Shown here: positions 2,513 through 64,000 of the stretch, piece by piece
How positions within the stretch are numbered: position 1 is the stretch's first letter
Layout of the letters: every line of letters begins with the position of its first letter
DNA from: Eledone cirrhosa
Lineage: Eukaryota
Assembly (NCBI GenBank): GCA_964016885.1
Contig: OZ024746.1
Location: forward strand, 17,236,001-17,300,000
DNA length: 64,000 bases
Reading direction: 5' to 3'
Made by a program: the position numbers and the translations under genes
The notes under the pieces: generated by a model
The model's database searches: none
Told to the model about the DNA's origin: nothing
What the model saw: the letters and a program-made list of their open reading frames with translations, nothing else

Positions 2513-2538
2513 ATCAAAATAGTGTTTATTGTTTAAAG

Positions 2539-3960: not shown

Positions 3961-6150
3961 AAATTTAGGAAAGCCCTTCAAGATGTGTATGACGAAAAAG
4001 AAGACGATTTAGAGTTGTATGACGTAGATGATAACTGGAATTTCTTACATGACAACTTACTGCAGGCTACTGAAGAAACTTGTGGCTGGAGCAGAGCTCC
4101 AACCAGACAATGAATGACCTGGTGGTGGAACAGCACGGTAGATAGGGCCATTAGAGACAAAAGACTAGCATGGAATGCTTGGAAAAATGGTGGGAGTAGA
4201 GAAGGATATACAACCACTAAGCGAGAAGCTAGACGTCGGGTGTATTTAGCACGCAGGGAGGCTGAGAGTAGGAGGTTTGCCAATGTTCTGCAACGGGAAG
4301 ATCAGAGATGTGCGGTGTTCCGCATTGCAAAGCAGTGTGCCAGTGCAAATCAGGATGTTGGAGATAAATGTGTCCAGAATGATGCCGGTGTACTTAGTGT
4401 CACGAATGATCAGAAAAAGGAAGCCTGGAAATGTCATTATGAGAGACTGATGAATGTGGAGAACGAATGGAAGAGAGAGAAATTACCTCCACTAGATCCG
4501 ACAGAGAGACCAGCTATTGAGATTGATGAATATAGGGTCCAAGAGGCGATTAAGGAAATGAAAAAATGGTATGGCCGCTAGACTGTCGGGGATAGTTGCT
4601 CAGATGCTGAAGGCATCAGGGTACATAGGCACTAAACTGGTTGCATGCATCATCAATCAGACTATATATGGCGGTGTCATACCCAAAGACTGGTGCAGCA
4701 GTATTCTCATAAATGGCTACAAAGGTAAAGGGAATGCTCTGGAGAGGAGCAATTATAGGGGATAAAACTGATGGATCAGGTCATGAAAGTGGCAAAAAGG
4801 ATATTAGTGCAACTAGTTAGAGAAAAGATCAAACTAGATAAGATGCAGTTTGGTTTTGTGCCTCTGAAAAGTACAACGGATGCCCTCTTCTTAGTGAGGC
4901 AACTACAAGAGAAGTTCTTAGAGAAGAATAAGCCATTATACTTATCTTTTGTTGACCTAGAGAAGGCTTTGATACGGTACCCTGATCTGTCATCTGGTGG
5001 TCCCTAAGGAAGCTAGGTGTTGAGGAATGGCTTGTGAGGACAGTGCAGGCTTTGTACAGAGGTGCTGTCAGTAAAGTGAGGGTAGGAATGGAGTTTAGTG
5101 AGGAATTCCAGATACAAGTAAGAGTACATCAGGGTTCAGTCCTCAGCCCGCTCTTGTTCATTATAGTCCTCCAAGCCATAACAGAGGAGTTTAAGACTGG
5201 CTGTCCATGGGAACTTCTCTATGCTGACGATCTGGTTCTTATAGCAGAATCAGTAGAGGAGCTGGAGAATAAATTCTGGCTATGGAAACAGCAGTTGGAA
5301 TCAAGAGGACTGAGAGTGAACCTAGCTAAGACAAAAGTGTTGATGAGTAGAAAAGAGGACAATACTCTGATTCCGTCAGGGAAATGGCCATATTTGATAT
5401 GCAGAAAAGGAACTGGCATAAATTCTATAAAAGGTACACAATGCAGATCTTGGGTACACAAGAGATGTAGTGGGATAGCAGGCAGTAGGGAGAAATACGT
5501 ATGCAGTAGATGTACAAGAAAAATTGACAGTAGAAGTCGCATTGATAGACACTTTTTTTCAAATGCAGGTGGGTGCTATAGAAGTGGTTGATAGCTTCCG
5601 ATACCTAGGTGATCAGATTAGCATGGGGGGGGGGGTTCCGAGGCCATAGTATCTAGAATAAGGACGGGTTGGAAGAAGTTTAGGGAGCTGCTTCCTCTGC
5701 TGACGTAGAAGGGTTTCTCCTTGCATACGAAAGGCCGGTTATATGATGCCTGTATGAGGTGTGCGATGCTGCATGGTAGTGAGACATGGGCAGCAACTGC
5801 AGAGGATATGCGACGGCTGGAAAGAAATGAGGCAAGCATGCTCCGTTGGATGTGCAATATCAATTAGCGTGAACGGCCGAGCATGGATGTGTTGAGAGAG
5901 AAACTGTGTCTGAGAAGGATAAATTGTTGTGTGCGGGAGAGGATGACCGATGGGTGAAGAAGTGCCAAGAAATGCCAGTTGAAGGAAGACCACGAAAAAC
6001 ATGGACGGAGGTGGTGAGAGCAGACCTCTGATCACTGAAGCTCACGATGGAGATGACGAAGGACCGTGACAAGTGGAGAGGTGCTGTGGTGAATAGGACC
6101 CGTCCCATCCTTGCAAGCAGAGAAAAGCGGACATAAAATGATGATGATGA
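3961..6150 (+). mobile_element. 5'-truncated RTE-clade LINE (frameshifted RT, Cys/His finger, (ATG)n tail)
   Basis: Fragmented ORFs with RT motifs NYRG, QFGF, FVDLEKA, HQGSVLSP, LLYADDL; C-terminal HGSETW...; ends in ATGATGATG. Confidence 0.95.
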
Positions 6151-16808: not shown

Positions 16809-20684
<3,876 letters not shown>

Positions 20685-40579: not shown

Positions 40580-41761
40580 TTATTTTTGGGGTCTTATCTG
40601 TCGTCCATCTCTTATAGATAGTGGTTTGTTTGTTGCATTAGAACTCAGAGCAGTCATTTTTACTGGGTTCTTTTTAGGTTCATTTTTCTTTGGTGGGACT
40701 GTCTTAACATTCTTCTCTCTTCTTTCTAAAGATATTTTTGGTTCATTTTGAATGTTTTTCCTTTGGTTTGGGTTATAAGGGGGTCTTACACTATTCTCTT
40801 TATCTGATATTATTTTCTTTTGAAGATATAATTTCTCTGGTTTATCTTTGTCCTTTTCTAAGGATAATTTTGCAGGTGCTTTGCTGACTCGAGTCTGGTT
40901 TGTGTTCCGAGGTTTCAACACAGCTTTAGATAATCTACTGATAAAGTTTCCAAAAGAAGATCTCCGATCAGATTTCTTTGGTTTGTTGTTATCTGGTGGA
41001 CTTAGCTGTAAAAGAACTGGCATGTCTTGAATTGTACTCACTTCTTTGGCAGTAAGGGTGTGATTCTGTGTTTCCAAATTGAGACTTTCAAGAGTCAATA
41101 AACTTTCTGTTCGTGCAAGAGGTGCTTTCACTATTACACCATTTTCAATCTCACATATTTCCTTATATCTATGCCACTGATCTTGTCCAGAGATGATACT
41201 GTCCGTCATATCACTCCGGCTTCTCATGTGGGTCTTCTTGAAAGGTTTTGAGGAATTTCCTGTATAAGTAGTTCGTCTTGCTCTGGTGAAAGGTGCTGGG
41301 TGGTCTTTAAATGGAAGAGTCTTGGCTGAAATGGAAGTATTAGAAAGAAAATCATGTAAATTTTAGAATATTATTTAAATTAAATAATGCAGATGAAATT
41401 CAAAGATAAAAATGAATTGAGAAGGTAACAATGATAACTTGTGACTATATTTCTGTAACTATGCTTTTGTGACTATATTTCTAATGTTAACTAATAAATT
41501 GTAACAGGGCAAATGTGAGTTCATGAAGTTGCAGTGAAGGCAACCCACCTAGGAGAAATGTGTCTCCAAACAAAAGATGCAGGGAAGGAACTGCCCCATC
41601 TAGGGGAGCACTTAAAAATGACAGTGCAAAGAAGGGCACTTTAATTCCTAATAAGAGAATCATACTGGTGCTTTTGAAAATAATCAAGAATTTGGAAGGA
41701 TTTACCAATATAACTTTCTCGTTATTCATGGCGAAAACCCACAAAAAAAGCTAAGGTAACC

Positions 41762-41797
<36 letters not shown>

Positions 41798-44693
41798 CTT
41801 TGTTGTCATTGTTATCCTCATCATTTATTACAAATTAATTATTAAAATATCAGTAAATAGTATTCCATACCAACGGGAACCTTGTTTTTTTGTGAAATCT
41901 TGAAATCCGTCAACGTTTCATCAAAATCATCGTCATCAACCGGTAACTGTATCTGACTGCCAGCAAAACTGATCCGACTGAAGTTTAGATGATGTTTTGA
42001 AGCATCACCTCGTGCTGGGGTACTGATTAACTGAGAAGGTTTGCCAGTAAATTTCTCAAAGTTACCGCCATGTACTTCTTGAAGAATTCGATCCATTGGA
42101 CCTTTCTTATTTTCAAATGCAGATGAACATGCATCTGAAAGACAGACCAGACAAACAAAACCAAATTTAGACAGAAATTCTTCGTATTATATTTTGAAAT
42201 TGGGAGGGGGAAGCTCTACTCCTCTCACCAAATCACTTTCATTCTTCCTCAACACATGACCAAGCTATCACATTCCATTTCTCTTCACAACATTCAACAC
42301 TGATTTTATTCCCATCATCCTCTTTAATTCATTGTCTGAATCTGATCCCCCATCTCCATTCAATAAACTCAAATAAAAAAAGGACAACACATACTGGCCT
42401 CTAATCCAAACTGAAGAGATAATTTCTTTTTAGTCAGATGACTTTTTATTTCCTTCTTACGATCTTCTGCCAAAGCCTGCTGCTTCTTTAAGAAATGATT
42501 GTCCTGAAAAGGTAGAATTGTCTCAATTATAATAAAGGAAAGTGGATGGCAGTGGTAGAAGTGGATGGCAGTGGTGGAAGTGGATGGCAGTGGTGGAAGT
42601 GGATGACAGCGGTGGAAGTGGATGGCAGTGGTGGAAGTGGATGGTAGTGGTGGAAGTGGATGGCAGTGGTGGAAGTGGATGGCAGTGATAGACTACCTAA
42701 CAATTCCACCCCACCCTGGACTGTTATTATATTTACTGACCCTGAAAAGATGAAATGCAAAGTTTACCATGGTAGGATTTGAACTCAAAGGTGTAGACAG
42801 CTGGACCCTCTAGTCCACCATCACTCTAACTAGGACAACTTACTGCAATACATGAAAACATCCAAATTTATGAGAACCAGAATAGTAGTAGTACTACTAC
42901 TACTGCTACTAATACCACCACCACCACCACTACTGCTGCTACTACTACTGTTACTAATGGTACTGCTACTAATACCACCACCACCACTACTACTACTACT
43001 GTTACTAATGGTACTGCTACTAATACCACCACCACCACTACTACTAATGGTTCTACTACTACTACAGCTGCTACTTAACAAAACCACGACCACCACTACT
43101 ACTGCTACATACTATTACCTCGACCACCACCACTACTACTGCTGCTACATACTATTACCTCGACCACCACCACCACTACTGCTGCTACATACTATTACTT
43201 CGACCACCACCACTACTACATACTATTACCTCGACCACCACCACTACTACTGCTACATACTATTACCTCGACCACCACCACCACTACTGCTGCTACATAC
43301 TATTACCTCGACCACCACCACCACTACTGCTGCTACATACTATTACCTCGACCACCACCACTACTACTGCTGCTACATACTATTACCTCGACCACCACCA
43401 CTACTACTACTACATACTATTACCTCGACCACCACCACTACTACTACTACATACTATTACCTCGACCACCACTACTATTACTTACTGTGCGACACTGCTT
43501 TACTGCTTCAAAGAATGTGTGGAGATCTTGAAGACACTTCTGAAGGTTAAAACTGTCAATGTTTTCACAGAAATAAGCAGCTACTTTCTGAATCAAGGAC
43601 CGTAAATGTCTCAGCCGACTATTGAGTTCACCAAACAATATTTTAACATCCTGTAAAATATTTTTTCATTTTAATTAGGAATTCAAAAGAAAATATGTTA
43701 AACTGTTTGTTATACAAAACCTATAAAATAATAATTGTTTCTACATTAGGCACAAGGTCAACATTTGAAGGGGAGGTAGGAAGCCTATTAAATCGACCCA
43801 GAGCATTACTGGTACTTTATTTTATTGACCCTGTAAAGACGAAAGGCAAATCTAATCTCAGTGAGATTTGAAATCAGAACATAAAATGCTGTTAAAAAAA
43901 ATAGTATAAATAGTTTCTACATTCATCAGAAGGGAAGCAATTGGGAAGGGGTGAATCAAAAGTGGGAGCTTAATTAAATTAACCCCAGTATTTAACTGGT
44001 ACTTTGTTTTATCTACCCCTAAAGGATGAAAGGGCAAAGTTGACGGCAGTGAGATTTGAACTCAGAACATAAAGGACTGTCACTAAATACTGCAAAGCAT
44101 TTAATCCAATTCTGACAATTCTGCCAAGTTTTCGCCCTTATTTTGGAATTAACCAAACATTAATTATCTTTTTAAATGTGAAGAAAATTGAAAAATTTAA
44201 TGTCAACAGTATGTTACTAAGTTGTGTCAAATGTTGTGCTATATTGCATCCTTTCTGCTAATTTGAGGACACAGACAAAGTTGACCTCAGCAGGATTTGA
44301 ACACAGAATGTAGAAAGTTGTAACAAAATACCACAAATCATTTTGTTCAATGCTCTACTCATTCTGCTAATCCACCACCTTTGATGGTTTCTAATTCAGG
44401 CACAAGGAACCAATAATCTGTAGAGAGGAGACAATCAATTACATCGACCCCAGAAAAATAAAAGACAAAGTTGACATCGGCAGGATTTAAACTCAGAATA
44501 TAAAAAGCAAGAACACATGAGCAGTGTATATTGATTGGTTTCAGTCATTAGACTGTGACCATGCTGGGGCACCACTTTAAATGGATTTAGTTGACCATAT
44601 TGGCACCAATACGTAGTTTATCAATTTCTTTTTGTTGAACCAATAAATTATGGGACATAAACACAAACGTAACTACAGACATTATATATACAT

Positions 44694-44728
<35 letters not shown>

Positions 44729-47700
44729 TATATATACTCCACACTGTAAACGTGGTTGGTGTTAGGAAGAGCATCCAGCCGTAGAAAACCTGCCAGACAG
44801 TCCTATACGAGCGAGACGACCAATCTTGCCTCAAGTGGGACAATCTAAACCTATGCTAGCGTGGAAGATAGACATTAAACAATGATGATGATGATGATAC
44901 ATACATATATACACACATGAAAAGGACCGTTATGTTTAGATGCTAGATATATTTAAATAATTATCTCAATTATTTTTTTAAAAAGAAAAAGATAGGTTTG
45001 CTATATCATCGTTTAACGTACATTTTTCCACACTACCATATATCATTATTTAATGTAAAAATGGCTTCTACACAATTAGAACTGTTTCATTCATATTATG
45101 AAATCATCAGGGCATTCCTGATGATTTCATATGAATGAAAGAGTTCTAATCGCTTAAATAAATATACTAATTTTCTCCTAATGCAGTTTATATATAATAT
45201 CGTCTTTTTTAATGTATCATGGATTACGTTACTGATTAAATAAGACAGTGTAACGCAGTCTTCGTTCAATTTTTATGTATTATATATTGTCAATTAGGAT
45301 TTTATTTGATGTATCATATTTACATGTATATATACCTGCGTATAATATCAATATACACACTACACATGCTAGCAGAAAACCACCCGAAAGGTGGTTTTTC
45401 TGCTAGTAATATTAATAAATGGAAAATATCTTTATAAAACCATATTTATTTTATTATACATATTTCAAGAGCACCAGTATTTTGGTATGTTATCGTCAGA
45501 TATAATACAATATTTGGTTTACAGATAATGACATATCAACATATGAACTTAATGTTGTGAGTTCAATGTAGATAGTGAATAAATGTTCAAAACTTGGGAT
45601 GAATATGCTAATGAGGATAACATTAAAACTGAAAAGGACCGTTATGTTTAGATGCTAGATATATTTAAATAATTATCTCAATTATTTTTTTAAAAAGAAA
45701 AAGATAAGTTTGCTATTAAAATTGAAGAAAAAATTGAAGAAAAAATTTAAAGAAAAAATATTTAAAGCTACATTCAGAATATTTATAGAAATATGCATAT
45801 ATACGTCCGAACATATTTACATGGGTATAGAAAGAATGAAATAATTATATTTATTTATTTAATTATATAATTTGGAAGTATTTATAATTAAATAAAAATA
45901 AATATTTATAACTTTGTTGAATAATCAACAAATTAAATAACTCATTGTTTATATATATATATATATATATAAACCACGTTTACAGTGTGAACACGGTAAA
46001 AACCTCCAGTCCACACTGTAAACGTGGTTGGTTTTAGGAAGGGCATCCAGCCGTAGAAAACCCGCCAGACAGTCCTATACGAGCAGGACAACCAATCTTG
46101 CCTCAAGTGGGAAAACTCCCGTCCAAACCCATGCAAGCGTGGAAGATGGACGTTAAACGATGATGATGATGATGAAGCACCCAGCCCACAGTAAAGTGGA
46201 CGTGTAGGCGCCACAGAAAAAAAGCACCCAGCACTCATTGTAAATGAGGTTGGTGTTAGGAAGGGCATCCAGCTGTAGAAATCAAGCCATCATCAGTTCC
46301 CGTCCCACCCTTGCAAGCAGGGAAAAGCGGACGTAAAATGATGATGATGAGATATATATATATATATATATATGGCATTTGTTTAGAATTGGTAAATCGT
46401 AATGCTGTGTCATAAGAGGCAACACAAAGGGTTGGTGTCAGGAAGGGTTTCTAGCTGTAAAACATTGCATCAAAACATCCCATCCAACCCATAAACAGTG
46501 TGGAAAAAACTGATGATGATGATGGTGATGATATTATACATTAGAACATCATAGGAGGAAAGGTAAAAATAATATTAGAACTTACCTTGATAAACATGCT
46601 GAATAAATTGTTCACTTCCTGGTCAGCGTGAGAGAGTTCTTTAAGAAACTGCTTCAAATCATTATTCAGTGCATTTATTTCACTCCGAGTATCGTCTAAA
46701 TTACATCTTAACGCCGGCAAAGTTAGAAAATATAACAGAAGAAATTTAGCAGAGACAGTTTCTTATTTGATGTTTTTATTACAGCTAACCCCTATGTAGG
46801 TTTAGCTGGCCTCCTACAAAGGTGTATCTCGTAGGAGGTTTCTTGGGAGTTTTAACCCTTTAATGTTCAAACCGGCCAAAATTCTCTACCTCTTTCTGTT
46901 GAAACTGGCTGTAACTGGTCGCTCAAACTGATGTTAAGGTATTGTTCTCAAAATAAATACTTTTAAAATCTCATAGATTCGATATTATGCGAGATAAAGC
47001 CTTTACCATGAAAATATAATAGTATATATAGAGTAATGTAAATGCTAAAGGGTTAATGATAGGGACCCCCAGTCATATTATGTTGTTGTTACAGCTCACA
47101 CTTATGTAGTTTTAGCAGGCCTCCTACAAGGTTGTATCTCATAGGTTTTGGTGGATGTTTTAAAGATACTGGACCCAGTCCTTATTTCATCAAAGTGTTA
47201 GTCCCATGAAAAAATGCACTCAGTCCACTCTGTAAAGTTGTAATGCTGGTGCCACAAAAAAATGTACCCAGTACACTTTGTAAGGTGGTTAGTCTTAGTT
47301 AAGGACATCCAGTCATGGAAACCATGCCAAATATGCAATGTGTGAGCAAGAGGAGGTCACTGAGACCAATCTGGTCTTGGACCTTGACAGCCTGTCAATC
47401 ATATAACATAAGATGCAAAATGATGATAATGATGATGCTGCTGACAATGATGATGATGATGGTGGTGATGATGTTGATGATGCACGTTGTGGATTAGAAA
47501 TAAAAAAACAAACAGATTGCTTACTTTGCAGCCTTCTCTAAAATATCTACATCTGCTGTAAACATAAGAATTTGGTCATCATTTTCTTCGGCTAATTCCA
47601 CCAAATGATGAAGTAAATTGAAATAACTGAACTCTGCAGCTTTTATTTTCAATACTTCAACCAAGCTAGATAACTTGAATCCATATGCACAACCATAAGA

Positions 47701-50700
47701 GCTACCCTGTAACATATACATATGTATATATATGTGTATGCAAAAGGCAAACAAATAAAGCAAACGACACAGTAGAATGAAGAAATATATTATTAGTTTT
47801 ACACACACACACACATATATATATATATACACAGACATACATATAATGGGTACTTTTCTCGAGTCACCAACATGACCACCTTAGGTGCTTTTATTTTTAT
47901 ATACATTTCCTTTTACACACACACATACATATAGGTGTATGAGCAAGACAAGGTCATCTGATCTGGCTTATCTCACAACAGAAAACTCATCTAACCCATG
48001 CTAGTGTGGAAAAATATATGCTAAATGGTGATGAGGATATGTGTGTGTATATATATACATATATATATAATAAATGGATTTAGTAAGCAGGTAAATCAAA
48101 ACCAGGGTAGAATGAAGAAAAAAATAAATACAAAATAAAATGAAAATAAAAACGATATATATATATATATATATATATATATCGTTTTTATTTTCATTTT
48201 ATTTTTTATTGTATATATATGTATATCAGTTATTACCTGGTTCAGGTAATTTCCAGCGCCCAAAATTAAATGAAGGAAATCTCTCAATCCTGAATCTTCC
48301 AAGACAATTTTACAGGCATCTACCATATTTCGAATACTGGTCCTCAGTTGGACAAATTTGACAAGGAACTCCGACTGAAGGTAATGTCCTTTCAGTAGAA
48401 GTTGGAAGTCTTTGACATCAGCCAGTTCTGCAAGGAACTGTTCAGTTGGGTGAAGATCTAATCTGTCTCCTTTATAAGAACGAAGGGATGCCACCTATAG
48501 GAAATAGAGGTTGAAATGATTTATTAATAATTATTATTATTATTTTTTGAAAAAGTTAGTTATTTTACTAAATCCCTCCAAATGAGAAATATGCTAACTA
48601 AAGAGTTAAGCTGTGTTACTAAATTCCTCCAAATTCTTCATTATTTTCAATGTACATTAATACACATGAGCTATGTATTTCATTAGAAATATGACAACAA
48701 AATGATCAACTCTTTAGCTACCCCTGGTTCTATGATACACAGCTGTCTATTTTATAGTGATTGTATTTATATAAAAAAACTTCCATAATAATTTTATGTA
48801 AGTACCTTTGTTAAGTTATATTCCAAACACCAGCTTAATAATGAATAAGTTAGTTATATTACGAAATCCTTCCAAATTCTTGAGTATTTTTTTAATTGAT
48901 TTGAAAATTAGTCAGTGTTTTTCGTCAGAAATATGGTAATGAAAGGGTTAATGACAGGCAGCGTCTTTCATATGGTAATGAAAGGGCTAAAATCATAGAC
49001 AGTGTCTTATTAGAAATATGGTAATGAAAGGAATAATGACATAGGCAGGGTCTTTCATTAGAAAGATGGTAATGAAAGGGTTAATGGTCTCTGTCTTCTG
49101 GGACATTTTTGTTCATCGCTGTCATTGACAGCATTTAGCTGTTTTAACAGTTGTTCTACCAATGAGTTTTCTCATTTTTATATGAATATTAATGACAGTC
49201 TTTCATTAGAAATATTGTAATAAAATGGCTAAAATCATAGGCAGTGTCTTTTATAAATGTGGCAGCAAAAATGTAAAGAAATAGAAGATTTTGTACGTAC
49301 CTCTTCTTTAGTTGGCAGGATTGTGATAAGACTAGAAAGTGTGGCCTGGGGTATACTAGCAACATTGTTTTGTTGTAATGCCCTCACCAAATCTTCAGCA
49401 TCATATTCACTTCGAGTGAGAAACAGGGTCACATTCATCAAAGTCTGCATTCCTATTAGCTGTAATGTTGATAAAAAACAAAACATTGAAACCTTTTTTA
49501 TATAAAACTGCCTGAAACCATCCTTGGTTCAATGATACAAAATTGCTTTTATTTTAAACTTTTCCTTTCCAATCCAGAGCCTTCTCACTCCTATTGGAGA
49601 AACTCCTCCCTGGTTGACTTCTACCACTTTCTGTTTGGTTTTGGTCATGTCAGGAGTGTAGCCATACTCACCATGCTTGGCAATTTGTGAGTTGGTGAGG
49701 CTATTTAATTCATATTTGGGGTGGATGGACTCTGAACAGTTCATTTGCCCTTTTGATAACTCTTGATTTTTTTGTGCTACTGGGGTTAAATTCTTATGAT
49801 TATCAAATCATTTTGAAAATAATGAAAAATTTGGTGGGATTTGGTAAAATAAATATTATATATCTGATATTTGGAACATAACTTAGAGGTTCTTACATAA
49901 AATTACGATGGAAAGTTTTTATATAAATATAACCACTTTAAAATAAACAGCTTTGTATTGTAGAAACAGAGGCGGTTTCAGGTGGTTTGAAACCAGAAAG
50001 AGAAAGTGTTTATATTTATATAAAACCTTCCATCACCATTTTATGTAAGAAACTTCAAGTTAAGCTAAAAACACCAACTTAATAATGTGCAAGTTAAGTA
50101 TTACTAAATCCCTCCAAATTATTGATTATTTTAGAAATTATTTGAAAATCTAAGGTAGTGTCTTTAATTAGAAATATTTTAAAGACTGGGTTAAGTATTC
50201 CCAACACTAGAGAGGTTGACATGTCTGTGACGAGACTGAAGAGTCCTCTCAACTCTTTTGGTGTGGGTTCTACAGCAGGATGGCCTTCCTAACGCCAACC
50301 ACTTTACAGATTGTACTGTATTTATATTGCAATTTATGAACAATTACCTCAATAGTTATAGACTTCCAGTGAAACAATCACTTGAATCTCTGCATTTTTA
50401 ATGACAAAAAGTGACAAGAGAGTGTCTGTCATTTGGTGCAGAACAAATAACACAAAGGACTTTGTTTTAAAAAAAAAAACTGGTTTTCTTCATTTTTCTC
50501 ATCAATGATTAAATATTTTGCCAATATCAGCCAAAGATATATATCATACACTTATATATATATATATAGTAGGTTTCCACACTTCTTAAACACACCTACG
50601 CCTGCTCCTTATAATGATAACAGCTTGATTCAATGAAATTACTTACATGTAATTTTTCAACAGGAACATTGGTATAAAACAATTCTTCTATTTTACTGAA

Positions 50701-51055
50701 ATTTGGTATAATTGGTAGAAAGTCATTGCTTGACCTCCAAATACAGTTATCAGACTTTTCTGCAACAACAACAAAAGATAAAAATAATACAGAAATTTTA
50801 AAAAATTTAAGTTAAATAAATTTGATGATATCAAAACTTTATGATAATGAGATAAAGTTAAATTCTATGAAGCTTGATGAAGGAATGTGAGGAGTGGCGA
50901 GATGCTGTGTTGAAAAGGACTCGTCCAACCCATGAGAATGTGGAAAAATGGATGTAAAAACAATGATGATGATTGTCATCATCAGGCCACTTGGTAGAGT
51001 CACAGTATGTATGTATGTAAGTATGAATGTATGTATACATGACTGAATGCATGTA

Positions 51056-51086
<31 letters not shown>

Positions 51087-54000
51087 GAATGTATGTATGG
51101 ATGCAACTCCTGAAGGGTGACATAGTGACATACAATGTATCTTGGACATTTTAAATCTGGCAGGACCCATCCCTCACCATGTCTGAATAGAAAGAGTGGT
51201 GGTAGTGGTAGTAGTAGTGATGGTAAGAGTGGTGGTAGTGGTAGTAGTAGTGATGGTAATAGTAGTAGTAGTGGTGCTAGTAGTAGTATAAAAAGTAAAG
51301 TAAAATAATTTAATACCGATATCTTCTGATGTTACTTTGGACCAATGTAACTTCTTGAGTCTTTTTGATGGTGAGAAACACATCCATAATAACAATTTAT
51401 TGTCATAGTCACTTTCATATAAATTTCTTTCTGTTCCAAATGGGTATTTAATTACTGGTACACCACCTCCTACTCCACCTTCTTGGTGGACAATGCTTCT
51501 TTCTTCACAAAGAGAGTTAATAAAGTTATCTTCCTTCAGGATATCAACATCTTTATACAGTTTCTTTGATGTTTTACAGTCAGTCCATTCAGGTTTCTCT
51601 CCTGATTGTATTCTAGGAATAATGTTTTCAATCATCTGCCATTTATCAGAACTAAAAGAAAGAAAAAAAACTATTTATTTTTTTTTACATAACAAACAAT
51701 AAAAAGAGTTACGGCCATTTTCTGAAGTTCTGGAGTTTATGAGATAAACCAGTTATTTCATGTCAAAATAACCTTCATAACAAAAAAACATTATATGGAA
51801 TGGACACAACAAATGAAATAGCCTAGTCAAGGCATTCCTATACTGCCCTGAGGAGGTTGGGGGGACAGCAACTGCCACTTATGGTTCCACAAGTTGCAAA
51901 TATTGCAGCAAAACAATGGCTTCTGACTTAGCCAATCTCAAGCCACTGGCCTCTGACATCCCCAACCCCTGACTTATAGGAGTGATAAATGTGAAAAGAG
52001 AAACAAGTTCATTAAATAAGACAGACTAAAAAAAGGTAGAAAGAATTTATTTTTACTTTTCCTTTTCATTATATTCCAGATGAAGTAAATCTTGGAGAAT
52101 GTGCAGAAATGAAATATATTTTGGTGTCCCCAGAGTCTGAAAATATATTTAAAATGGAATAAAACACCTGAGAGAAGTTTTAATTGCCTAAATATTTCAT
52201 GCAATAATTAATTTTAACAACAAAAATATAAATTCCTTGAGGATCCTTCAGTTGTGCCAAGGGTGTCATGATAAAAGGCACCCAGTATACTGTAAAGTAG
52301 TAGTGTTGGTGTCATGATGAAATCCAACCAGTACACACAGTAAGGTGATAGAATGGTGCCACAATAAATACACAATATACTCTGTGTAAAGTGATAAGGG
52401 TGGTTCAACAATAAAATGTACCCAGTATACTATGAAAGGTGGTAGAACTGGTGCCATGATAAATGTGGTTAGAAAAAGCCATCTCACTTACCGCTTTTCA
52501 CAGGCGCCGCTAAATTCCACTGCAGGTACTCCTCTTCCACGTGCGTCCGGCTGCTTAACACCAGGAGCTGCCCAAAACGCGTCCTCACCGTATGTTGGTC
52601 ACCACTAGAGAGAGGCCCTCTCCCTGGCCCTTCCGGTCGAGCATCCTTCCGGTCAAAGACCCCTTCCGGTCGAGCACTCAAAAACCCCTTCCGGTCGAGC
52701 ACTCCCCCCCCGCCCACCGCACCATACCCACACGCCCCCCTGATCTCAAGGATCAATTTCCCCCTCATCCCTCTGCATATGAAAGTCTGCCGTCCAGGTC
52801 GGTGGTCTACGACTTCGTTGCGATCTTCGTAGTATTGGGGCAGGGCTCTGGGTTTCCTCTTCCTCGGAGTCCGTCGATACAGTGATTCTTCTTACATCCA
52901 GGACATGACGTGGTACCCCGTCCACGGACACATTGTTCTTTGAATTTACGGCCGTCACCATTCCCCTTCCCCATTGAGATGTGCACCGTGCATCTGGGGG
53001 TTCAACCCAGACTTCTTCGCCCACCTGCACGAATGCACTCTCTCTCCCCACTGGCCGTTGTGGTGGCGTGCACGGGTGCCGCCACTCGTATTTGAATACT
53101 GCTCTGTGTGGCACCGATTCCTCGACCTGTCCAACCCGAGGGGACATATTGTACCAGAACACTGCCTCCATTGGTGAGATATGGCCCCGCTCCGCCATTG
53201 CCTTGATCGTCCGGTGGTGTCGCTCCACGATTCCATTCCCGCTCGGCCTGTGCGCCGCTCTGAAGAAACGGTCCACCTTCCATCCATCGAGCATCCCCCT
53301 CAGTACCTCCGAGCGGAACGCTGAGCTGTTGTCCATCAGCAGTTCATCCACAGGGCCCCGCTCCAAGAACACCTCTCTCAACGTCCGCACGATTTCCTCG
53401 GCCGTTCCAGTCTTCATCTCCCTCCATATCGCCACTCGACCTGGTCCACAGTCGACCATCGAGAGGTACGTTCCCTGCCGGTAGTGCGTCACATCCACCG
53501 CTAATCGCTTCCAGTCGCGATCCACCGGGAGGCTTCCCGTTTCGTGTACACCCGGGGCGGGATCAATGGACTGACATCGGACGCAGCCTCTAACCACCCC
53601 CCGAACACTGTGTCTGCTAACGTCCGAGTCGATTCTCCTGGCTAGGAACAGGCTCCTATCCACCCCCATGTGGTGCATGTCATGCAACCCCTTCAGGTCT
53701 AACTCGGTCAGCCGACACACGGCAGCTATCTCATCCTCTACCTCCTCCGGCGCTTCCATCCAGGCTTTCTTCACTCTAGTTAAGATGTCCGCCCTATTTT
53801 TCTCTGAAGGCACAAACACTACGCTCAGCTTCAGGTCGAACTCGGTGGCCAGCTCTCCTAATGTTCCCAGGCGGCGCTTTATCAGCATCTCCGCCGCGCC
53901 TCTCGTTCGCACTCTCTTCTCACTGGTGAGCACTGATCTTACCCATCACCACCATTGGTCAGTGGTTCATCTGTGAACGCCACCACCACCATTTATCTAA

Positions 54001-57000
54001 GCTTCTTCAGTCTTAATGGTCAGTGGTTTGTCTTTCATAGCTGCTGCAACACCACCACCACCACCACCACCGCCACCTTTGTAAACTGGCTCAGTCTACA
54101 GTCAACTGTTCATCTTTAGCAGCCACCCTAATACCATCCTTATCAACAACACCACCACCACCGCCATCAACACCACCACCAACACCATCATCAACACCTC
54201 CACCACCACTATTACCATCATCACCACCACCAACACCATCAACACCACCACCACCACCATCATCACCACCACTAATACCATCAACACTACCACAACAACC
54301 ACTACTACCAACACTATCACCACCACCACTAATACCATTAACACTACCACAACAACCACTACTACCAACACTATCACCACCACTACTACCAACACCACCA
54401 CCACCAACACCATCACCACCACCAACACCGCCAACACCACCACCACTACTACTACCCAGTATACTCTGAAAGGTGGTAGAACTGGTGCCATGATAAATAC
54501 ACCCAGTAGACTCTGTAAAGAGGTAGGGTTATTACTATGATAAAATGCACCCAATAGTGGTAGTGCTAGTGCTACAATAAATACACCTAGTATACTCTGT
54601 TAAGTGGTTAACTTTAAGAAGGGTGTCCAGCTATACAAACTATCCCAAAAATGGAACATATGAACAAGACATGGTTCTTTGATCTGTCTAATAACAGACA
54701 GTGACAACCTGTCCAAACCATGTCAGTGAGGAAAAACAGACATAAAACAGGGATGATAATCATCTATGAAGATATTAACTTGTAGATCTGAGAAAATTCC
54801 AGAACCTTTTCAATAATAGAATCCAATAATGCAGAAGGACTTTGGTAATCCATCTCAAACTTGGTTTGCATTTCTTCTTCATCTTTATGCTTCCGAGAAT
54901 AAAATGCCTGCAATGTAAATAAGAGCAATAAATACAAGCATGGAAAAACAGACATAAAATAATGATGATGAATATATATATAAACTGGGATTCCTTACAG
55001 TTTCTGTCTACCAATTTCACAGACAAAGCATTAGTTAACCTGAGGTTTCAGTATAAGCTGTTTGCCCAAGGTGCAAAAGAGTCAGTACAGGACTTAACTA
55101 TAAGCTAAATAAACTATAGCTTAGGGCCACACACCCTTAGGAGCCTCATTTAAAAAAATATATTTTAATTTTTCTTTAACATTAAACCATTAAAAAATTA
55201 TATATATTTAATTTTGCAATCATTAATAAATAATAATCATGTATAATTATTTAAAATCTTTTTAACCAAATTTCTAAAGTGAAGGGCCTCAAATTTCATA
55301 TAGCTTAGGACCTCAGCAGATAAAAGTCCAGCCCTGAGAACAGTAGGTTAGAACCCAAGACCATATGGTTGTGAAGAAAACTTCTTAACCACACAGCTAT
55401 ACCTGTACCAATACAGCACCAAACAATTTAGACAAAAGAAATAAAAAGGAGAGAAAAACAACAATATTTTACCTCAATTTGAATTTGTAGATCTTTATCA
55501 AATTCATCAGACTGTAGAGTGTTGAGAATATCTAAGAGCCCAAGACCTTAAAAAATAAAACATGAAATTCATCATCATCATAATTGGCATGGGTTGGGCA
55601 GGACTTTTCAAGACAATGTTTTACAGTTGGATATCCCTTCCTTACACCAACCCTTTTAGTAATTTCTTATGACACATAGGGATAGAGTGTACTAATTCTA
55701 AACCAGATAGACACATCATTATTGCTATATTACATCCATTCTTCTGTGCTGGTATGGGTCAGATGAATTCTCAGTCCTGTGAAACATGTCTTGTTAATAT
55801 GTTCCATATTTTAGCATAGTTTCTGTGACAAGATGCATTTTAATGTGGCACCAGCACTACCACTTTACAGAGTGCACTAAGGGCATTTTATAATGGTAAC
55901 TGCATTCCCCCTTTATATCGTGTACTGAGCTCATTTTATCGTGGTAACAGCCCTAGCCATCAGTAAGATTTGAATCTCTAGGCAAGATTTAAACTCAGAA
56001 CAAATACCACAAAGTATTTCCTCTGACGCTCTACCAATTCCATCAATGCACTGTCTTGAACTTGGTATTATATTTTATCAACCTTTGAAAGTATGAGGTA
56101 AAGCTGACATTGTCAGGATGAATTCAGAACACAGAGTCAGAAATACCACAAGCTATTGTATCTGATGTGACACTAACAACTTTGACATTTCTGAAGGCAC
56201 TAATTATTGTTCAGAAATTAAGACACTAATTATTACACCGAATCAACCCCAGCATGTGACTGGTACTTTATCCCCCCCCCCCCCCACACACACTTCAAAA
56301 ATAAAATACTGGATAAAGAGCAAAGTTCTTCAATAATGGCAATATTTTATGGAACTTACCAACAAACTCGTTTCGAATCTTGTTCCTTCCTTGCAGCCCT
56401 GTATTACCGTTAATTATACAGTTAATAACAGTGAGAATGGTACATTTGTAAGCTGCTGTCTCCGTCTGACTTATTTCACTTACTAGAATACTAAAACGGT
56501 GAGCTTGGTCAGTCTCTTTCTGAAATATTATAGGACAAAATATATGTAAATTTATGACTAAAAATATAGACAAATTTATGACTAAAAGTGTTAATTTGTG
56601 ACTAAAAACATGTTAATTTAGAGCAAAATATGCTAACTCATGTAAGTCATTAATTCTTCTCTATATTCTAAGTCTAACATTCATTTATGACTAAGACCTC
56701 AGACCAACATTTAAGTATAAGACCTCAATCTAACATTTATTGAAGTCTAAGACATTAGTCTAACATATTTATGTATAACACCTTAATCATCATCATCATT
56801 TTACGTCCACTTTTCCCTGCTTGCAAGGGTTGGATGGGTCCTATTCAGCACAGCATCTCTCCATTTGTCATCTCCTCGGTGAGTTTCAGCGATCTGAGGT
56901 CTGCTCTCACCACCTCCGCCCATGTTTTTTGTGGTCTACCTCTACTGCGTCTTCCTTCTACTGGGATTTCTTGGGACTTCTTTACCCAGCGATCATCCTC

Positions 57001-60000
57001 CATGCGCATCACATGTCCATACCATCTCAGCCTTCTCACCTGCACACCACAACTTATCCCTCTTATACACAGTTTCTTTTTCAACTCGTCTATGCTTGGT
57101 TGTTCACACACATTGACATTGCACATCCAACGGAGCATACTTGCTTCATTTCTCTCCAGCCGTCGGATATCTTCTGCAGTTGCTGCCCATGTCTCACTAC
57201 CATGCAGCATCGTGCATCTCACACAGGCATCATATAACCGTCCTTTCGTATGCAGGGAGAAACCCTTCTTTGTCAACAAAGAAAGCAGCTCCCTAACTTC
57301 TTCCAACCAGTCATTCTAGACACTATGGCCTTGGAACAGCCCCTCCCATGCTAATCTGATCACCTAGGTACCGGAAGCTATCAACCACTTCTATAGAACC
57401 CACCTCCATTGGAAAAATGTGTCTGTTACTGCGATTACTACTGCCAACTTTCCCTGTACATCTACTGCATACGTAGTTTTCCCTACCTGTTAGTTTGCCT
57501 GCTATCCCACTACATCTCTTGTGTACCCAAGATCTGCATTGCGTACATTTTATTGAATTTATGCCAGTTCCTTTCCTACATATCGAACATGGCCATTTCC
57601 CTGATGGAATCGGAGTATTGTCCTCTCTTCTACTTATCAACACTTTTGTCTTAGCTATGTTCACTCTCAGTCCTCTTGATTCCAACTGCTGCTTCCATAA
57701 CCAGAATTTATTCTCCAGCTCCTCTACTGATTCTGCTATAAGAGCCAGATCGTCAGCATAGAGAAGTTCCCATGGGCATCCAGTCTTAAACTCCTCTGTT
57801 ATGGCTCGGAGGACTCTAATGAACAAGAGCGGGCTGAGGACTGAACCCTGATGTACACCTACTTGTATCTGGAATTCCTCACTAAACTCCATACTACTCT
57901 CACTTTACTGACAGCACCCCTGTACATAGCTTGCACTCTGTCCTCACAAGCCATTCCTCTACACCTAGTTTCCTTAGGGACCACCAGATGACAGATCGGG
58001 GTACCCTATCAAAGGCCTTGTCTAGGTCAACAAAAGCTAAGTATAGTGGCTTATTCTTCTCTAAGAACTTCTCTTGTAGTTGCCTCACTAAGAAGAGGGC
58101 ATCTGTTGTACTTTTCCAAGGCACAAAACCAAACTGCATCTCATCTAATTTGACCCTTTCTCTAATTAGTTGTGCTAATATTCTCTCTGCCACTTTCATA
58201 ACCTGATCCATCAGCTTTATGTCCCTATAATTGCTCCTCTCTAGAGCATCCCCTTTACCTTTGTAGCAATTTATGAGAATACAGCTGCACCAGTCTTTGG
58301 ATATGACACCACCATATATAACTTGATTGATGATGCGTGCAACCAGTTTAATGCCTACTTCACCTGATGCCTTCAGCATCTCAGCAACTATCCCCGACGG
58401 TCCAGCAGCTTTACCATTCTTAATTTCTTTAATTGCCTCTTGTACCCTATATTCGTCAATCTCAATAGCTGGTCCCTCTGTTGGGTCTATTGGGGGTAAT
58501 TTCACTCTGTCCCATTCGTCCTCCACATTCATCAGTCTCTTATAGTGACATTTCCAGGCCTCCTTTTTTTGATCATTTGTGACACTAAGTACACCGGCAT
58601 CATTCCAGACACATTTATCTCCAACAACATCCTGATTTGCACTGACACACTGCCTTGCAATGCGGAACACCGCACGTCTCTGATCTTCCCGACGCAGAAC
58701 ATTGGGGAACCTCCTACTCTCAGCCTCCCTGCGTGCTAAGTACACCTGACGTGTAGCTTCTCTCTTAGCGGCTGTGTATCCTTCTCTACATCCCACCATT
58801 TTTCCAAGCCTTCCATGCCAGTCTTTTGTCTCTAATGGCCTTATCTACCGTGCTGTTCCACCACCAGGTCACTCTCTGTCTGGTTGAAGCTCTGCCCCAA
58901 CCACAAGTTTCTTCAGTAGCCTGCAGTAAGTTGTCACGTAAGAAATTCCAGTTATCATCTATGTCATACAACTCTAAATCGTCTTCTTTTTCATCATACA
59001 CATCTTGAAGGGCTTTGCTAAATTTATTTAACATATATATAAGACCTTAGCCTAACATTATATCTAAGACCTTAATCTAACATATATTTGTGTCTAAGAT
59101 ATTAGTCTAGCATATATTTAAGTCTAAAATCTTAGTCTAACATATATTTAACCCTTTAGCATTTACATTACTCTATATTTACAATTGTATTTTGTGGTAA
59201 AGGCTTTATCTTACATAATTATCTCACATAATATCGAATCTACAAAATTTTGATGTTATTTATTTTGAGAACAATACCTTAACACAAGTATGAGCAGCCA
59301 GTCATGGCCAGTTTGAACAGAAAGAGGTGAAAGAATTCTGGCCGGATATGGCTGGTTTAAATGCAAATGAGCTAAGTCTAAGACGTTAGTCTAACAGTAA
59401 TGTAAAAACTTGGTCTAAAACCTTCAACTCTGCAGCAGAAACAACAATGAAACATTACCTTGAAATGACCGAATGCTTCCAAGACACCGTAATAACTCTG
59501 TGGACTAAACATACACAGAACAGACAATACTTCAAACAATTCTTTCTTTGTCATAGTGTGGTTTGTGTTTAAAGCTACAACAAAGATAAACAAGAAATTT
59601 GAATTATCTTGAAATGATTTATCAGAAAATATATGAAAACAGATCTGTTAATTCAAATTTTTAAAGCATCTATAGTAATAGATAGATTGTGAATATTTGC
59701 AGTAGAGTAAATACTTTAATTGTTAAGCTGATAGAGTTAGTGCTGTTTTGTACTTTTAAAGAATGTTTAACTAATGTGGTTTCATGTGGTACAGTTACCA
59801 TGAATTTGGTACAGTTATAGTGTTGTTTTGTACTTTTTAAGAATGTTTTGCAAATGTGGTTTTTTATGATTTGTTAATTCAAGTGACTATAATATCTTTA
59901 ATAGTGGACAGATAGTGAAAACATGCAGTAATTTTTATTGTGATGTAGTCATAGTGTTGTTTTATAGTTTTCAAGAATGTTTAGCTAATGTGATTTCATG

Positions 60001-60410
60001 TGGTGCAGGACGTTAATTTTTAAATATAAACACTAACCTGAAGTCAGTTTCTTGAGACCATCTGGAAGTTCCAAGATATGCATCATACCAACATCGGTGC
60101 TTAGTACTGTGGTAATACAGTTCAGACAGTCAAACTGTAGGATTGCATCAGAGAAATTGGATGGTCCATGAAGAATCATACCACTGAGACTATCCAGAAG
60201 ACAAGTTAGACCCCCATATTCTAGAAAATCCAACAGCCATGAACTAGTGGCATGTTCAATATTTGATTTAAGGGTGTAAAGGGAATTCATAGATGGGGAA
60301 CAAGCCAGAGCAAGACATTCTTCCACAGATTTCTGAACATTGAATATAAACACATCAGGAATAGAGTCATCCATGGTCTTTTGGTAAATTATATCAAGGG
60401 GATAATCCAT
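40580..60410 (-). CDS. INF2: Inverted formin-2-like formin (DID/FH3 - FH2 - DAD/WH2-like - basic tail) lacking FH1; about 1118 aa, 16 coding exons
   Basis: Exons 60410-60038, 59574-59459, 56519-56360, 55546-55473, 54907-54806, 52136-52057, 51651-51317, 50759-50647, 49459-49301, 48494-48237, 47706-47525, 46706-46586, 43650-43486, 42503-42395, 42134-41871 and 41325-40580 (3357 nt, GT-AG, phases consistent). INF2-type DID (W..FLE.GL..LL, SDAILQ..C, IRNEFVGL.LLD.L); FH2 LKKLHW, GNYLN, GFKLSSL, LLHH. May be a paralog rather than the ortholog; the N-terminus may extend upstream (acceptor at 60435, frame open). Confidence 0.88.
42541..42688. repeat. 18-bp minisatellite
   Basis: AGTGGATGGCAGTGGTGG(A) x about 8. 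Confidence 0.9.
42880..43480. repeat. Intronic CCA/CTA trinucleotide-derived minisatellite
   Basis: ACATACTATTACCTCGACCACCACCACTACT units. Confidence 0.9.
45074..45150. repeat. Short foldback with two opposed CTGATGA...GAAA hammerhead-like cores
   Basis: Plus: CTGATGA-TTTCATATGAAT-GAAA (45118-45140); the inverted copy lies at about 45084-45110. Confidence 0.6.
46852..47056. mobile_element. piggyBac-type MITE (TTAA-CCCTTT...AAAGGG-TTAA)
   Basis: TTAA at both ends, CCCTTTA/TAAAGGG termini; related copy in the opposite orientation at about 59148-59375. Confidence 0.7.
52484..53946 (-). mobile_element. Gypsy/Ty3 LTR retrotransposon fragment: RNase H C-terminus, intact integrase, PPT and partial 3' LTR
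   Basis: 395-aa open ORF (53933-52746) with HHCC (HDMHH...CVRC) and D-D-E (LAVDVTH, MDNSSAF, GIVERHH); G-rich PPT then TG at 52732; markedly GC-rich. Confidence 0.93.
54048..54455. repeat. (ACC/ACT/AAC)n low-complexity repeat
   Basis: Direct reading. Confidence 0.9.
55082..55336. mobile_element. hAT-like MITE (partial second copy at about 34735-34812)
   Basis: Termini CAGTACAGGACTT...AAGTCCAGCCCTG; internal TATAGCTTAGGGCC shared with the 34.8-kb copy. Confidence 0.45.
56786..59025 (-). mobile_element. 5'-truncated RTE-clade LINE in a formin intron
   Basis: GKAAGPSG, NYRDIKL, FVDLDKAFDRV, GVHQGSVLSP, LLYADDL, RLRWYGHVMRM, RGRPQKTW; four frameshifted ORFs; (ATG)n tail. Confidence 0.95.
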
Positions 60411-60533
60411 GCTAGTGTAATATGGAAATGGTAACTGAAAGAAAAAGAAATAGGTAATTAAATAATGAATATTTATATATAAGAATTATTATATTTAGCC
60501 CTTTCTAATATCTTTAATTGTTTCATTACCATA

Positions 60534-62591: not shown

Positions 62592-63158
62592 ATCATCATC
62601 ATCATCATTTTACGTCCGCTTTTCCCTGCTCGCAAGGGTGGGACGGGTCTTATTCAGCACAGCATCTCTCCACTCGTCACGGTCCTTCATCATCTCCACC
62701 GTGAGCTTCAGCGATCTGAGGTCTGTTCTCACCACCTCCGCCCATGTTTTTCATGGTCTACCTCTACCACGTCTTCCTTCAACTGGCATTTCCTTGCACT
62801 TCTTCACCCATCGGTCATCCTCCATGCGCATCACATGTCCATACCACCTCAGTCTCCTCTCCCGTACACTACATTCTATCCCCCTCAGACACAGTTTCTC
62901 TCTCAACACATTCATGCTGGGTCGTTCACGCACATTGACACTGCACATCCAGCGGAGCATACTTGCCTCATTTCTCTCCAGCCGTCACATATCCTCTGCA
63001 GTTGCTGCCCATGTCTCACTACCATGCAGCATCGCGCTCCTCACACAGGCATCATATAACCTCCCTTTCGTACGCAGGGAGAAACCCTCCTTAGTCAGCA
63101 GAGGAAGCAGCTCCCTAAACTTCTTCAAACCCGTCCTTATTCTAGATACTATGGCCTC
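62592..63158 (-). mobile_element. RTE LINE 3' fragment
   Basis: MLRWMC...RLRWYGHVMRMEDDRWVKKC...RGRP; (ATG)n tail. Confidence 0.93.
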
Positions 63159-63292
63159 GTGTGTGTGTGTATTGCTATGATGACATTAACTGTTGTCAGC
63201 AACTACAGTAGCTGTCATAGTTATGAAAGATGATATGATAACTGAGGGTGATAAGAACAAACCTAATTACTGAATATGAAGCAACAACTGCA

Positions 63293-64000
63293 GCACAATA
63301 CCAGCAATATCATCACCAACACTACTACCAATACCAGCAATATCATCACCAACACTACTACCAATACCAGCAATATCATCACCAACACTACTACCAATAG
63401 CAGCAATATCATCACCAACACTACTACCAATACCAGCAATATCATCACCAACACTACTACCAATACCAGCAATATCATCACCAACACTACTACCAATACC
63501 AGCAATATCATCACCAACACTACTACCAATAGCAGCAATATCATCACCAACACTACTACCAATACCAGCAATATCATCACCAACACTACTTCCAACAGCA
63601 GCAATATCATCACCAACACTACTACCAATACCAGCAATATCATCACCAACACTACTACCAATACCAGCAATATCATCACCAACACTACTACCAATACCAG
63701 CAATATCATCACCAACACTACTACCAATACCAGCAATATCATCACCAACACTACTACCAATACCAGCAATATCATCACCAACACTACTTCCAACAGCAGC
63801 AATATCATCACCAACACTACTACCAATACCAGCAATATCATCACCAACACTACTACCAATACCAGCAATATCATCACCAACACTACTACCAATACCAGCA
63901 ATATCATCACCAACACTACTACCAATAGCAGCAATATCATCACCAACACTACTTCCAACAGCAGCAATATCATCACCAACACTACTACCAATAGCAGCAA
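63293..64000. repeat. 33-bp tandem minisatellite, more than 20 copies, running off the window
   Basis: CAATACCAGCAATATCATCACCAACACTACTAC units. Confidence 0.95.

What the first reader, a model, noticed from the sequence alone, without database searches (positions are those of the whole stretch)
51317..51651. INF2-type formin with no FH1 polyproline domain
Seen: the end of the DID/dimerisation region (DKWQMIE) and the start of FH2 (PSKRLKKLHWSKV) lie in one exon, about 90 aa apart, with no proline run. No intron lies between them to hide an FH1 exon, and the preceding intron (51652-52056) has no minus-strand CCN tract. Known: FH1 recruits profilin-actin for fast elongation and is nearly universal in animal formins. 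Inference: this intact 16-exon gene encodes a profilin-independent formin that may act as a capper, bundler, microtubule binder or dimerising regulator of canonical INF2.
Basis: partly seen in the sequence, partly recalled or inferred. Interest (0 to 1): 0.75.

Follow-up and report, generated by a model that had tools for sequence, protein, structure and literature searches.

The report
Ancient mollusc formin lacking FH1
This intact, spliced octopod gene encodes a formin that lacks the proline-rich arm other formins use to lengthen actin filaments; it belongs to a branch shared across molluscs whose actin-gripping helix is also changed, so it likely caps or holds filaments rather than growing them.

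Summary
Observation confirmed. A 16-exon minus-strand gene (60374-40580, all GT-AG, 1106 aa, no stop) encodes an INF2-type formin. Exon 7 (51651-51317) runs from the dimerisation domain into the FH2 lasso with 5 prolines and no run. A contig of run X4 splices exon 6 straight to exon 7. In two canonical INF2 paralogs of the same genome, the matching exon (same phases) carries FH1 inside it, so FH1 was lost from within the exon.

The gene is not an octopus oddity. It belongs to a paralog clade found in cephalopods, bivalves, gastropods, a chiton and the annelid Owenia (SH-aLRT 98). None of 22 mollusc members has a polyproline tract, against 70 of 82 other INF formins. Dimerisation residues, DID and DAD are kept.

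Best reading: an autoinhibited, non-elongating formin dimer that caps or holds filaments (0.45, inferred, no assay). I found no description of the clade in 10 paper searches. New variant of a known kind.

The parts
60038..60374 (-). coding exon 1 (aa 1-113), DID/Drf_GBD start
   Evidence: X4 contigs lie on it
59459..59574 (-). exon 2 (aa 113-151), DID; holds V131, the INF2 A149 position at the centre of the predicted DAD pocket
56360..56519 (-). exon 3 (aa 152-205), DID
55473..55546 (-). exon 4 (aa 205-229)
54806..54907 (-). exon 5 (aa 230-263), DID end / dimerisation domain
52057..52136 (-). exon 6 (aa 264-290), dimerisation domain
   Evidence: spliced to exon 7
51317..51651 (-). exon 7 (aa 290-402): end of dimerisation domain, about 85-aa proline-poor linker where FH1 normally lies, start of FH2 lasso (W393 codon 51344-51342)
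50647..50759 (-). exon 8 (aa 402-439): second lasso Trp W409, short lasso-knob linker
49301..49459 (-). exon 9 (aa 440-492): remodelled knob helix; L451 (codon 49426-49424) at the INF2 I643 position
48237..48494 (-). exon 10 (aa 493-578): FH2 core and GNYLN post motif
47525..47706 (-). exon 11 (aa 579-639): post; K600 (codon 47643-47641) at the INF2 K792 position, retained
46586..46706 (-). exon 12 (aa 639-679), FH2
43486..43650 (-). exon 13 (aa 680-734), FH2 end
42395..42503 (-). exon 14 (aa 735-771), terminal helix after FH2
41871..42134 (-). exon 15 (aa 771-859): DAD-like motif M784-F796 (42096-42058), without the LRKT of INF2's WH2
   Evidence: (spliced to exon 16)
40580..41325 (-). exon 16 (aa 859-1106 and stop): clade-specific tail with RSRSD (41224-41210), a basic amphipathic helix R979-N999 (40966-40904) and KEN (40801-40793)

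Best explanation
The gene is an intact, spliced INF2 paralog that has lost FH1 and the WH2 motif and carries a remodelled knob helix; it likely works as an autoinhibited FH2 dimer that caps, anchors or cross-links actin filaments without elongating them. Shown: gene structure, one exon 6-7 splice, FH1 loss inside the homologous exon, clade membership, residue changes. Predicted: the DID-DAD contact. Inferred: that FH2 still dimerises (lasso Trp pair and post motif kept), that it still touches actin (an invariant Leu at a normally exposed site, basic post residue kept), and that without FH1 it slows rather than speeds barbed ends when actin is profilin-bound. The conserved tail motifs would supply targeting and phospho- or degradation control (inferred from conservation only).
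For: No tract of 6 P in 7 in 0 of 22 mollusc members with a full DID, against 70 of 82 other INF formins. Homologous exon 950 nt and 2042 nt with 7 and 9 tracts in paralogs C3 and C4, against 335 nt here, same phases. I643 site: Leu 24 of 24, against Ile 104, Val 4, Leu 0 of 108. 7 of 15 clade-shifted FH2 sites fall in residues 442-456, while 37 sites including W393, W409, G573, N574, N577 are shared. The knob helix is a main actin-binding element with the Ile exposed at its centre (PMC4660058, PMC2948019, passages). Linker 22-27 aa (n=23) against 29-49 (n=94). K792 site K or R in 24 of 24. LRKT absent from the 10 mollusc DAD regions printed and present as LRKT/LRKA/LKKT in 4 canonical ones. 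DID+DAD model score 0.80 against best control 0.02, runs agreeing in at least 80% of contacts, partner pLDDT at least 59; this mark was reached by 51 of 78 solved and 2 of 108 mismatched pairs, and the pass may be from memory of solved DID/DAD complexes. Without FH1, profilin slows FH2-bound ends (PMC5969902, passage). FH1-less Dictyostelium ForC bundles filaments (PMC4111664 and chytrid preprint, passages).
Against: No biochemistry or localisation. Ile to Leu is conservative and I found no test of it; it could be tolerated. FH2 is diverging faster than in canonical INF2 (Biomphalaria vs Argopecten 33% against 53%, DID 47% against 54%), which fits loss of actin binding equally well. Owenia has Val and His at the two key sites, so neither is fixed across the whole clade. 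The AlphaFold monomer is weak (mean pLDDT 58.5, pTM 0.35; lasso, linker and tail under 50). Capping, bundling and anchoring cannot be told apart from sequence. Expression rests on one low-depth run whose type is not on record.
Confidence: 0.45

Rival explanations
1. It is a pseudo-formin that no longer engages actin and works as a regulator: its DID binds the DADs of canonical INF2 or Dia formins in trans, or its FH2 forms inactive heterodimers with them.
For: DID is better conserved than FH2 between snail and scallop (47% vs 33%). DAD-pocket residues match canonical INF2. Three actin-handling modules (FH1, knob, WH2) changed together while dimer residues stayed. Human INF2 DID binds mDia1-3 DADs in trans (PMC11335204, passage). 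Three canonical INF2 paralogs exist in this genome.
Against: It keeps its own DAD, predicted to fill its own DID. The exposed knob site is invariant Leu and the post residue stays basic in 24 of 24. Within cephalopods FH2 (59%) is no less conserved than DID (56%). No trans complex was tested.
Confidence: 0.25
2. It is still a working, slow nucleator or elongator that uses free G-actin, or receives monomers by another route such as the conserved tail or a partner, with Leu standing in for Ile.
For: Full-length FH2 (Pfam 182 bits over 6-372 of 372) folding like INF2 (TM 0.84 to 9azq_H). Retained autoinhibition implies an activity worth restraining. FH2 alone tracks barbed ends in vitro (PMC5969902, passage).
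Against: K454, Q455 and F456 positions, 81-95% conserved in other INF formins, are replaced in the clade; WH2 LRKT is lost; linker short. No monomer-binding motif was recognised in the tail (blank).
Confidence: 0.2
3. Its main job is on microtubules (binding or stabilising through FH2 and the basic tail), as for FHDC1 and the non-actin functions of INF2.
For: INF2 binds and stabilises microtubules (PMC11335204, passage). The tail is long, basic and disordered with one conserved basic helix. Owenia's tail has 7 SxIP/SxLP-like motifs (EB-binding label recalled).
Against: No SxIP-like motif in the window protein or the four other octopod proteins. The tail profile scored 0 bits on the FHDC1 sequence P0032.
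Confidence: 0.08
4. The missing FH1 is an assembly or gene-model artefact, or the gene is a decaying pseudogene.
For: Polyproline exons are often lost from models; some other INF rows show such gaps. dN/dS was not computed.
Against: No N in the window. Direct exon 6-7 splice. Same FH1-less linker in O. bimaculoides, O. vulgaris, O. sinensis, Argonauta and a decapodiform protein on 3.5-kb contigs. Open frame at 75-79% identity to octopod orthologs.
Confidence: 0.02

Closest known systems
INF2 (human; INF subtype of metazoan formins)
   Same: DID-DD-FH2-DAD order; best PDB sequence and fold match; lasso Trp pair, GNYLN, K792 site, DID residues around R218; matching exon boundaries with own-genome INF2 paralogs.
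   Different: No FH1; I643 is Leu; knob KQF replaced; linker about 15 aa shorter; WH2 LRKT lost; only 16 residues before the DID where INF2 has 34 with its calmodulin helix; no CAAX; own conserved tail.
Crassostrea gigas LOC105346876 in Pruyne 2016 (PMC5047451)
   Same: It is the oyster ortholog: its FH2 rows in S1 Text match P0015, and S1 Table files it as INF.
   Different: The passages read do not name it or note FH1 loss, the Ile change or a subclade (0 hits for its identifier or 'isoleucine' in the main text). Tree figures were not seen.
Dictyostelium ForC
   Same: DID-type formin with no polyproline; reported to bundle filaments and lack canonical formin activity (passages and cited title).
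   Different: Amoebozoan, described as closest to FHOD1; an independent loss. Functional analogue only; not compared by sequence here.
Delphilin and FHOD formins (non- or weakly elongating animal formins)
   Same: Precedent for formins that nucleate, cap or bundle without speeding elongation (Delphilin: search listing and abstract start; FHOD1: passage).
   Different: They keep FH1 (recalled) and belong to other subtypes.
MWH / MWHF and opossum PHCF (Pruyne 2016)
   Same: Animal formin derivatives that lost modules: MWH keeps only DID-DD; opossum PHCF lacks FH1.
   Different: MWHF has Phe as second lasso aromatic and no DAD; this protein has Trp and a DAD. PHCF has PH domains and its FH1 loss is species-level, not clade-wide.

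Membership tests
Formins (FH2 proteins) | Full FH2 domain | tested here: met
   PF02181 6-372/372, 182 bits on ortholog P0003; window exon 10 over cut-off; fold matches INF2/mDia1/Daam1
Formins (FH2 proteins) | Lasso Trp pair and post GNxMN/GNYLN for ring dimer | tested here: met
   W393, W409, G573, N574, N577 shared with other INF formins; dimer itself not modelled
Formins (FH2 proteins) | Actin nucleation or processive elongation | not testable with these tools
   needs pyrene/TIRF assays
INF subtype | FH2 and DID group with INF2/FHDC1 against other subtypes | tested here: met
   INF split SH-aLRT 99.9, aBayes 1 on 35 taxa with only 3 non-INF rows; oyster ortholog filed as INF by Pruyne
INF subtype | N-terminal DID-DD without G domain | tested here: met
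   Drf_GBD 84-188 only and Drf_FH3; E 1e-47 to INF2 N-terminal structures
Canonical INF2 | Polyproline FH1 before FH2 | tested here: not met
   0 of 22 clade members; window max 2 P in 7
Canonical INF2 | Knob Ile (I643) | tested here: not met
   Leu in 24 of 24
Canonical INF2 | Post Lys (K792) | tested here: met
   K 19, R 5 of 24; window K600
Canonical INF2 | DAD that binds DID | tested here: inconclusive
   Motif conserved; model 0.80 vs control 0.02, but like complexes are solved
Canonical INF2 | WH2 LRKT within the DAD | tested here: not met
   absent in 10 of 10 mollusc members printed and in Owenia
Canonical INF2 | N-terminal calmodulin helix; C-terminal CAAX isoform | tested here: not met
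   residue 17 aligns to INF2 residue 35; protein ends RQIRPQK; alternative first or last exons not excluded
FHDC1/INF1 | FH1-FH2 at the N-terminus, no DID | tested here: not met
   has DID, lacks FH1
MWHF/FMNL | Phe as second lasso aromatic; MWHF lacks DAD | tested here: not met
   W409 and DAD present; criteria from PMC5047451
Pseudogene | Stops, frameshifts, broken splice sites, no transcript | tested here: not met

The most novel reading that the evidence does not exclude
Molluscs and at least one annelid have kept, since before their split, a dedicated pseudo-formin subfamily: an INF2 duplicate stripped of FH1, WH2 and the canonical knob, that acts as a built-in brake on canonical INF2 or Dia formins (trans DID-DAD capture or dead heterodimers), switched by its own conserved tail (RSRSD and RRSS phosphosites, KEN box), possibly in step with the cell cycle.
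Probability: 0.2. Interest if true: 0.75.

Novelty: new variant of a known kind. Interest (0 to 1): 0.5.

Why it matters
Animal formins are classed into nine subtypes, nearly all built around FH1-FH2 elongation. A paralog clade kept across four mollusc classes and an annelid, which lost FH1 and WH2 and rebuilt its knob while holding on to dimer and autoinhibition elements, is a natural experiment on what an FH2 does when it does not elongate. It gives ready constructs for testing capping, bundling or trans-inhibition, including the effect of Leu at the otherwise near-invariant Ile. It also means that about twenty database entries named 'inverted formin-2-like' probably do not work like INF2. 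It does not settle a major open question, and no function is shown yet.

Tried and rejected
Hidden FH1 exon: rejected. Pseudogene or processed copy: rejected; one locus in the genome. The second C6 FH2 locus at 18.5 Mb as a tandem INF2: not supported; it matched only two short stretches at 31-39% and reads like DAAM (label recalled). No RNA holder was listed on record; X4 is read as RNA only from its spliced, exon-confined contigs. The whole-gene lay was swamped by repeats: 87 joints were not shown, so only the exon 15-16 junction could be read. dN/dS was not computed: no ortholog DNA was held. ESM Atlas on tail 880-1040 gave no usable hit and Pfam none on exon 16; neither shows novelty. Priapulus P0107 (no tract, Leu/His) as a clade member: left open (SH-aLRT 71.6, no DAD match, tail score 0); it may be long-branch attraction or a parallel loss. 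IQ-TREE bootstrap did not finish; supports are SH-like or SH-aLRT on a fixed tree. The INF2 I643A/K792A biochemistry paper and the 2024 cryo-EM paper were not held, so per-residue actin contacts were not mapped. No FH2-actin or FH2 dimer model was run. Three look-ups of earlier scan findings were empty.

Full report
1. The observation. The window holds no N. Guided by two database orthologs, I built a 16-exon minus-strand model from 60374 to 40580: 15 GT-AG introns, 3321 nt, 1106 aa, one terminal stop. Exon 7 is exactly 51651-51317. It encodes the last dimerisation helix, a linker and the first lasso Trp, with 5 prolines and at most 2 in any 7 residues. Introns 5, 6 and 7 hold no PPP in any minus-strand frame. 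A contig of run X4 joins 52057 to 51651, skipping 405 bases with GT-AG ends, and X1, which covers the intron, shows no such joint. Another X4 contig runs from exon 15 into exon 16 at the predicted sites. X4's type is not on record, depth is 3-7 and it is a single run, so this shows a spliced transcript, not its level.

2. FH1 was lost from inside the exon. The genome has about ten FH2 loci. Three are INF2-like with polyproline FH1 and the knob Ile (C3:233.7 Mb, C4:224.69 Mb, C1135). In C3 and C4 the matching exon starts one base before the codons leading to the same helix Trp and ends in phase 1 nine codons after the lasso Trp (eight here). It is 950 nt with 7 tracts and 2042 nt with 9 tracts, against 335 nt with none here. 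The window gene is single-copy.

3. A conserved clade. Orthologs without FH1 were found in O. bimaculoides, O. vulgaris, O. sinensis and Argonauta (75-79% identical), a cuttlefish and an unnamed close relative on 3.5-kb contigs, then in bivalves, gastropods and a chiton. On 158 FH2 sequences (11 of 169 dropped as duplicates, plant or double-domain rows; 18 more lacked enough FH2) the 24 mollusc sequences group with the annelid Owenia P0051 at 0.996. DID alone gives 0.999 and DID+FH2 0.995 on 62 taxa; SH-aLRT is 98 on 35 taxa, molluscs alone 71. The 24 rows come from 23 sources and are related, so counts are not independent events. Priapulus P0107 attaches weakly (71.6). In Argopecten and Biomphalaria the FH1-less and a canonical copy are listed on contigs of equal length, and the oyster ortholog's locus number neighbours two other INF genes, which hints at a tandem origin (inference).

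4. What changed. Using a published rule, 6 prolines in 7 residues (chytrid preprint 10.1101/2020.06.12.142943, passage), 0 of 22 mollusc members with a full DID have a tract, against 70 of 82 other INF and 17 of 22 non-INF formins. The oyster keeps a 5-in-7 vestige; the chiton model has a doubtful repeat with 4 in 7. Aligned to human INF2, I643 falls on L451 and K792 on K600. The Ile site is Leu in 24 of 24, against Ile 104, Val 4 and Leu 0 of 108 other INF rows; the Lys site stays K or R in 24 of 24. Of 15 FH2 sites conserved in at least 80% of other INF rows but in at most 25% of the clade, 7 lie in residues 442-456, the knob helix; 37 sites, including both lasso Trp and the GN-N post motif, are shared. 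The knob helix binds actin's hydrophobic cleft with the Ile exposed at its centre (PMC4660058, PMC2948019, passages), and I643A blocks INF2 activity in cells (PMC11335204, passage). The lasso-knob linker is 22-27 aa (n=23) against 29-49 (n=94). The DAD core is kept but LRKT is gone. Between Biomphalaria and Argopecten, FH2 identity is 33% in this clade against 53% for canonical INF2, DID 47% against 54%; within cephalopods the two domains are alike (59% and 56%). The tail has clade-specific motifs: R[ST][RQH]SD in 24 of 24, a basic helix pattern in 21 of 24, KEN in 23 of 24 against 20 of 52 longer canonical tails (patterns were written after seeing the alignment; functional labels for these motifs are recalled). 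A tail profile scores 130-378 bits on mollusc members, 34 on Owenia and at most 5 on the other tree rows.

5. Structure. AlphaFold gives a confident DID, a fair FH2 core and a disordered 311-382 linker, but weak overall scores (mean pLDDT 58.5, pTM 0.35). Foldseek matches INF2, mDia1 and Daam1 (TM 0.84, 3.1 A to INF2 9azq_H). DID 14-248 with DAD 766-802 of the O. vulgaris ortholog scored 0.80 against a best control of 0.02, runs agreeing in at least 80% of contacts and partner pLDDT at least 59; the mark was reached by 51 of 78 solved and 2 of 108 mismatched pairs. Residue 131, the A149 position, sits at the centre. Like complexes are solved, so this shows likeness more than binding.

6. Mechanism. 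FH1 delivers profilin-actin and helps hold the formin on the end; without it profilin only slows FH2-bound ends (PMC5969902, passages). With FH1 and WH2 gone, the knob altered and the linker short, fast elongation and INF2-type severing are unlikely (inference; that INF2 I643A caps a subset of filaments and loses severing, and that short linkers go with slow gating, is recalled and was not retrievable). An invariant Leu at an exposed site, a basic post residue, dimer residues and retained autoinhibition suggest the ring still grips actin under regulation. I therefore favour a regulated capper, anchor or cross-linker (0.45) over an actin-blind regulator of other formins (0.25), a slow nucleator (0.2) or a microtubule-first role (0.08).

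7. What is known. Pruyne 2016 (PMC5047451; passages, S1 Table rows for four lophotrochozoans, S1 Text hits; figures not seen) lists the oyster ortholog as one of five oyster INF genes without comment. FH1-less formins are known singly: ForC, opossum PHCF. Ten full-text searches returned no paper describing an FH1-less mollusc INF clade; subscription journals and bioRxiv supplements were outside reach and could hold one. Other papers seen: PMC6126924 (passages on Bni1 I1431/K1601), bioRxiv 10.64898/2026.04.09.717539 (passages), PMC6004577 (listing only).

8. Verdict. Real feature, well supported as to anatomy and age; function inferred. New variant of a known kind; interest 0.5.

Noticed in passing
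window 52749-53945 (-), intron 5: A 399-aa open frame with a weak integrase-core match (PF00665, E 8e-5, under cut-off), an LTR-retrotransposon-like fragment; flanked by a 46-nt direct repeat 2034 bases apart.
   Followed up: partly
window 56848-59046 (-), intron 2; also 3925-5004 (+) and 62613-63185 (-): Broken non-LTR (LINE) reverse transcriptase copies (RVT_1); X4 holds many related contigs with other letters.
   Followed up: no
window 2536-2958 (+): Single-frame EFCAB10-like EF-hand gene (PF24548, E 2e-14).
   Followed up: partly
window 19142-19555 (+): Exon of an rRNA adenine dimethylase (PF00398; TFB1M-like by recall).
   Followed up: no
window 22884-23072 (-): Exon with an F-box-like motif (PF12937).
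   Followed up: no
window 60375-60434 (-): An in-frame upstream ATG could add 12 residues; an X4 contig covers to 60434 with about 69 further letters unplaced, suggesting a 5' untranslated exon upstream.
   Followed up: no
window 63270-63999: Tandem array of 33-nt units, open in at least one frame on each strand, running off the window end.
   Followed up: no
G000 C3:233.69-233.78 Mb, C4:224.63-224.70 Mb, C1135:28-38 kb: Three canonical INF2-type paralogs with FH1; C4 has an unusually long (about 680-aa) FH1 exon and a slightly divergent knob.
   Followed up: partly
P0107 (Priapulus caudatus) and P0076 (hagfish INF2 isoform X7): Two further INF formins without a polyproline tract outside the mollusc clade; P0107 also has Leu and His at the two key FH2 sites, His shared with Owenia.
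   Followed up: partly
P0051 (Owenia fusiformis) tail: Four repeated SSIP plus three further SxIP/SxLP-like motifs, absent from octopod orthologs.
   Followed up: no
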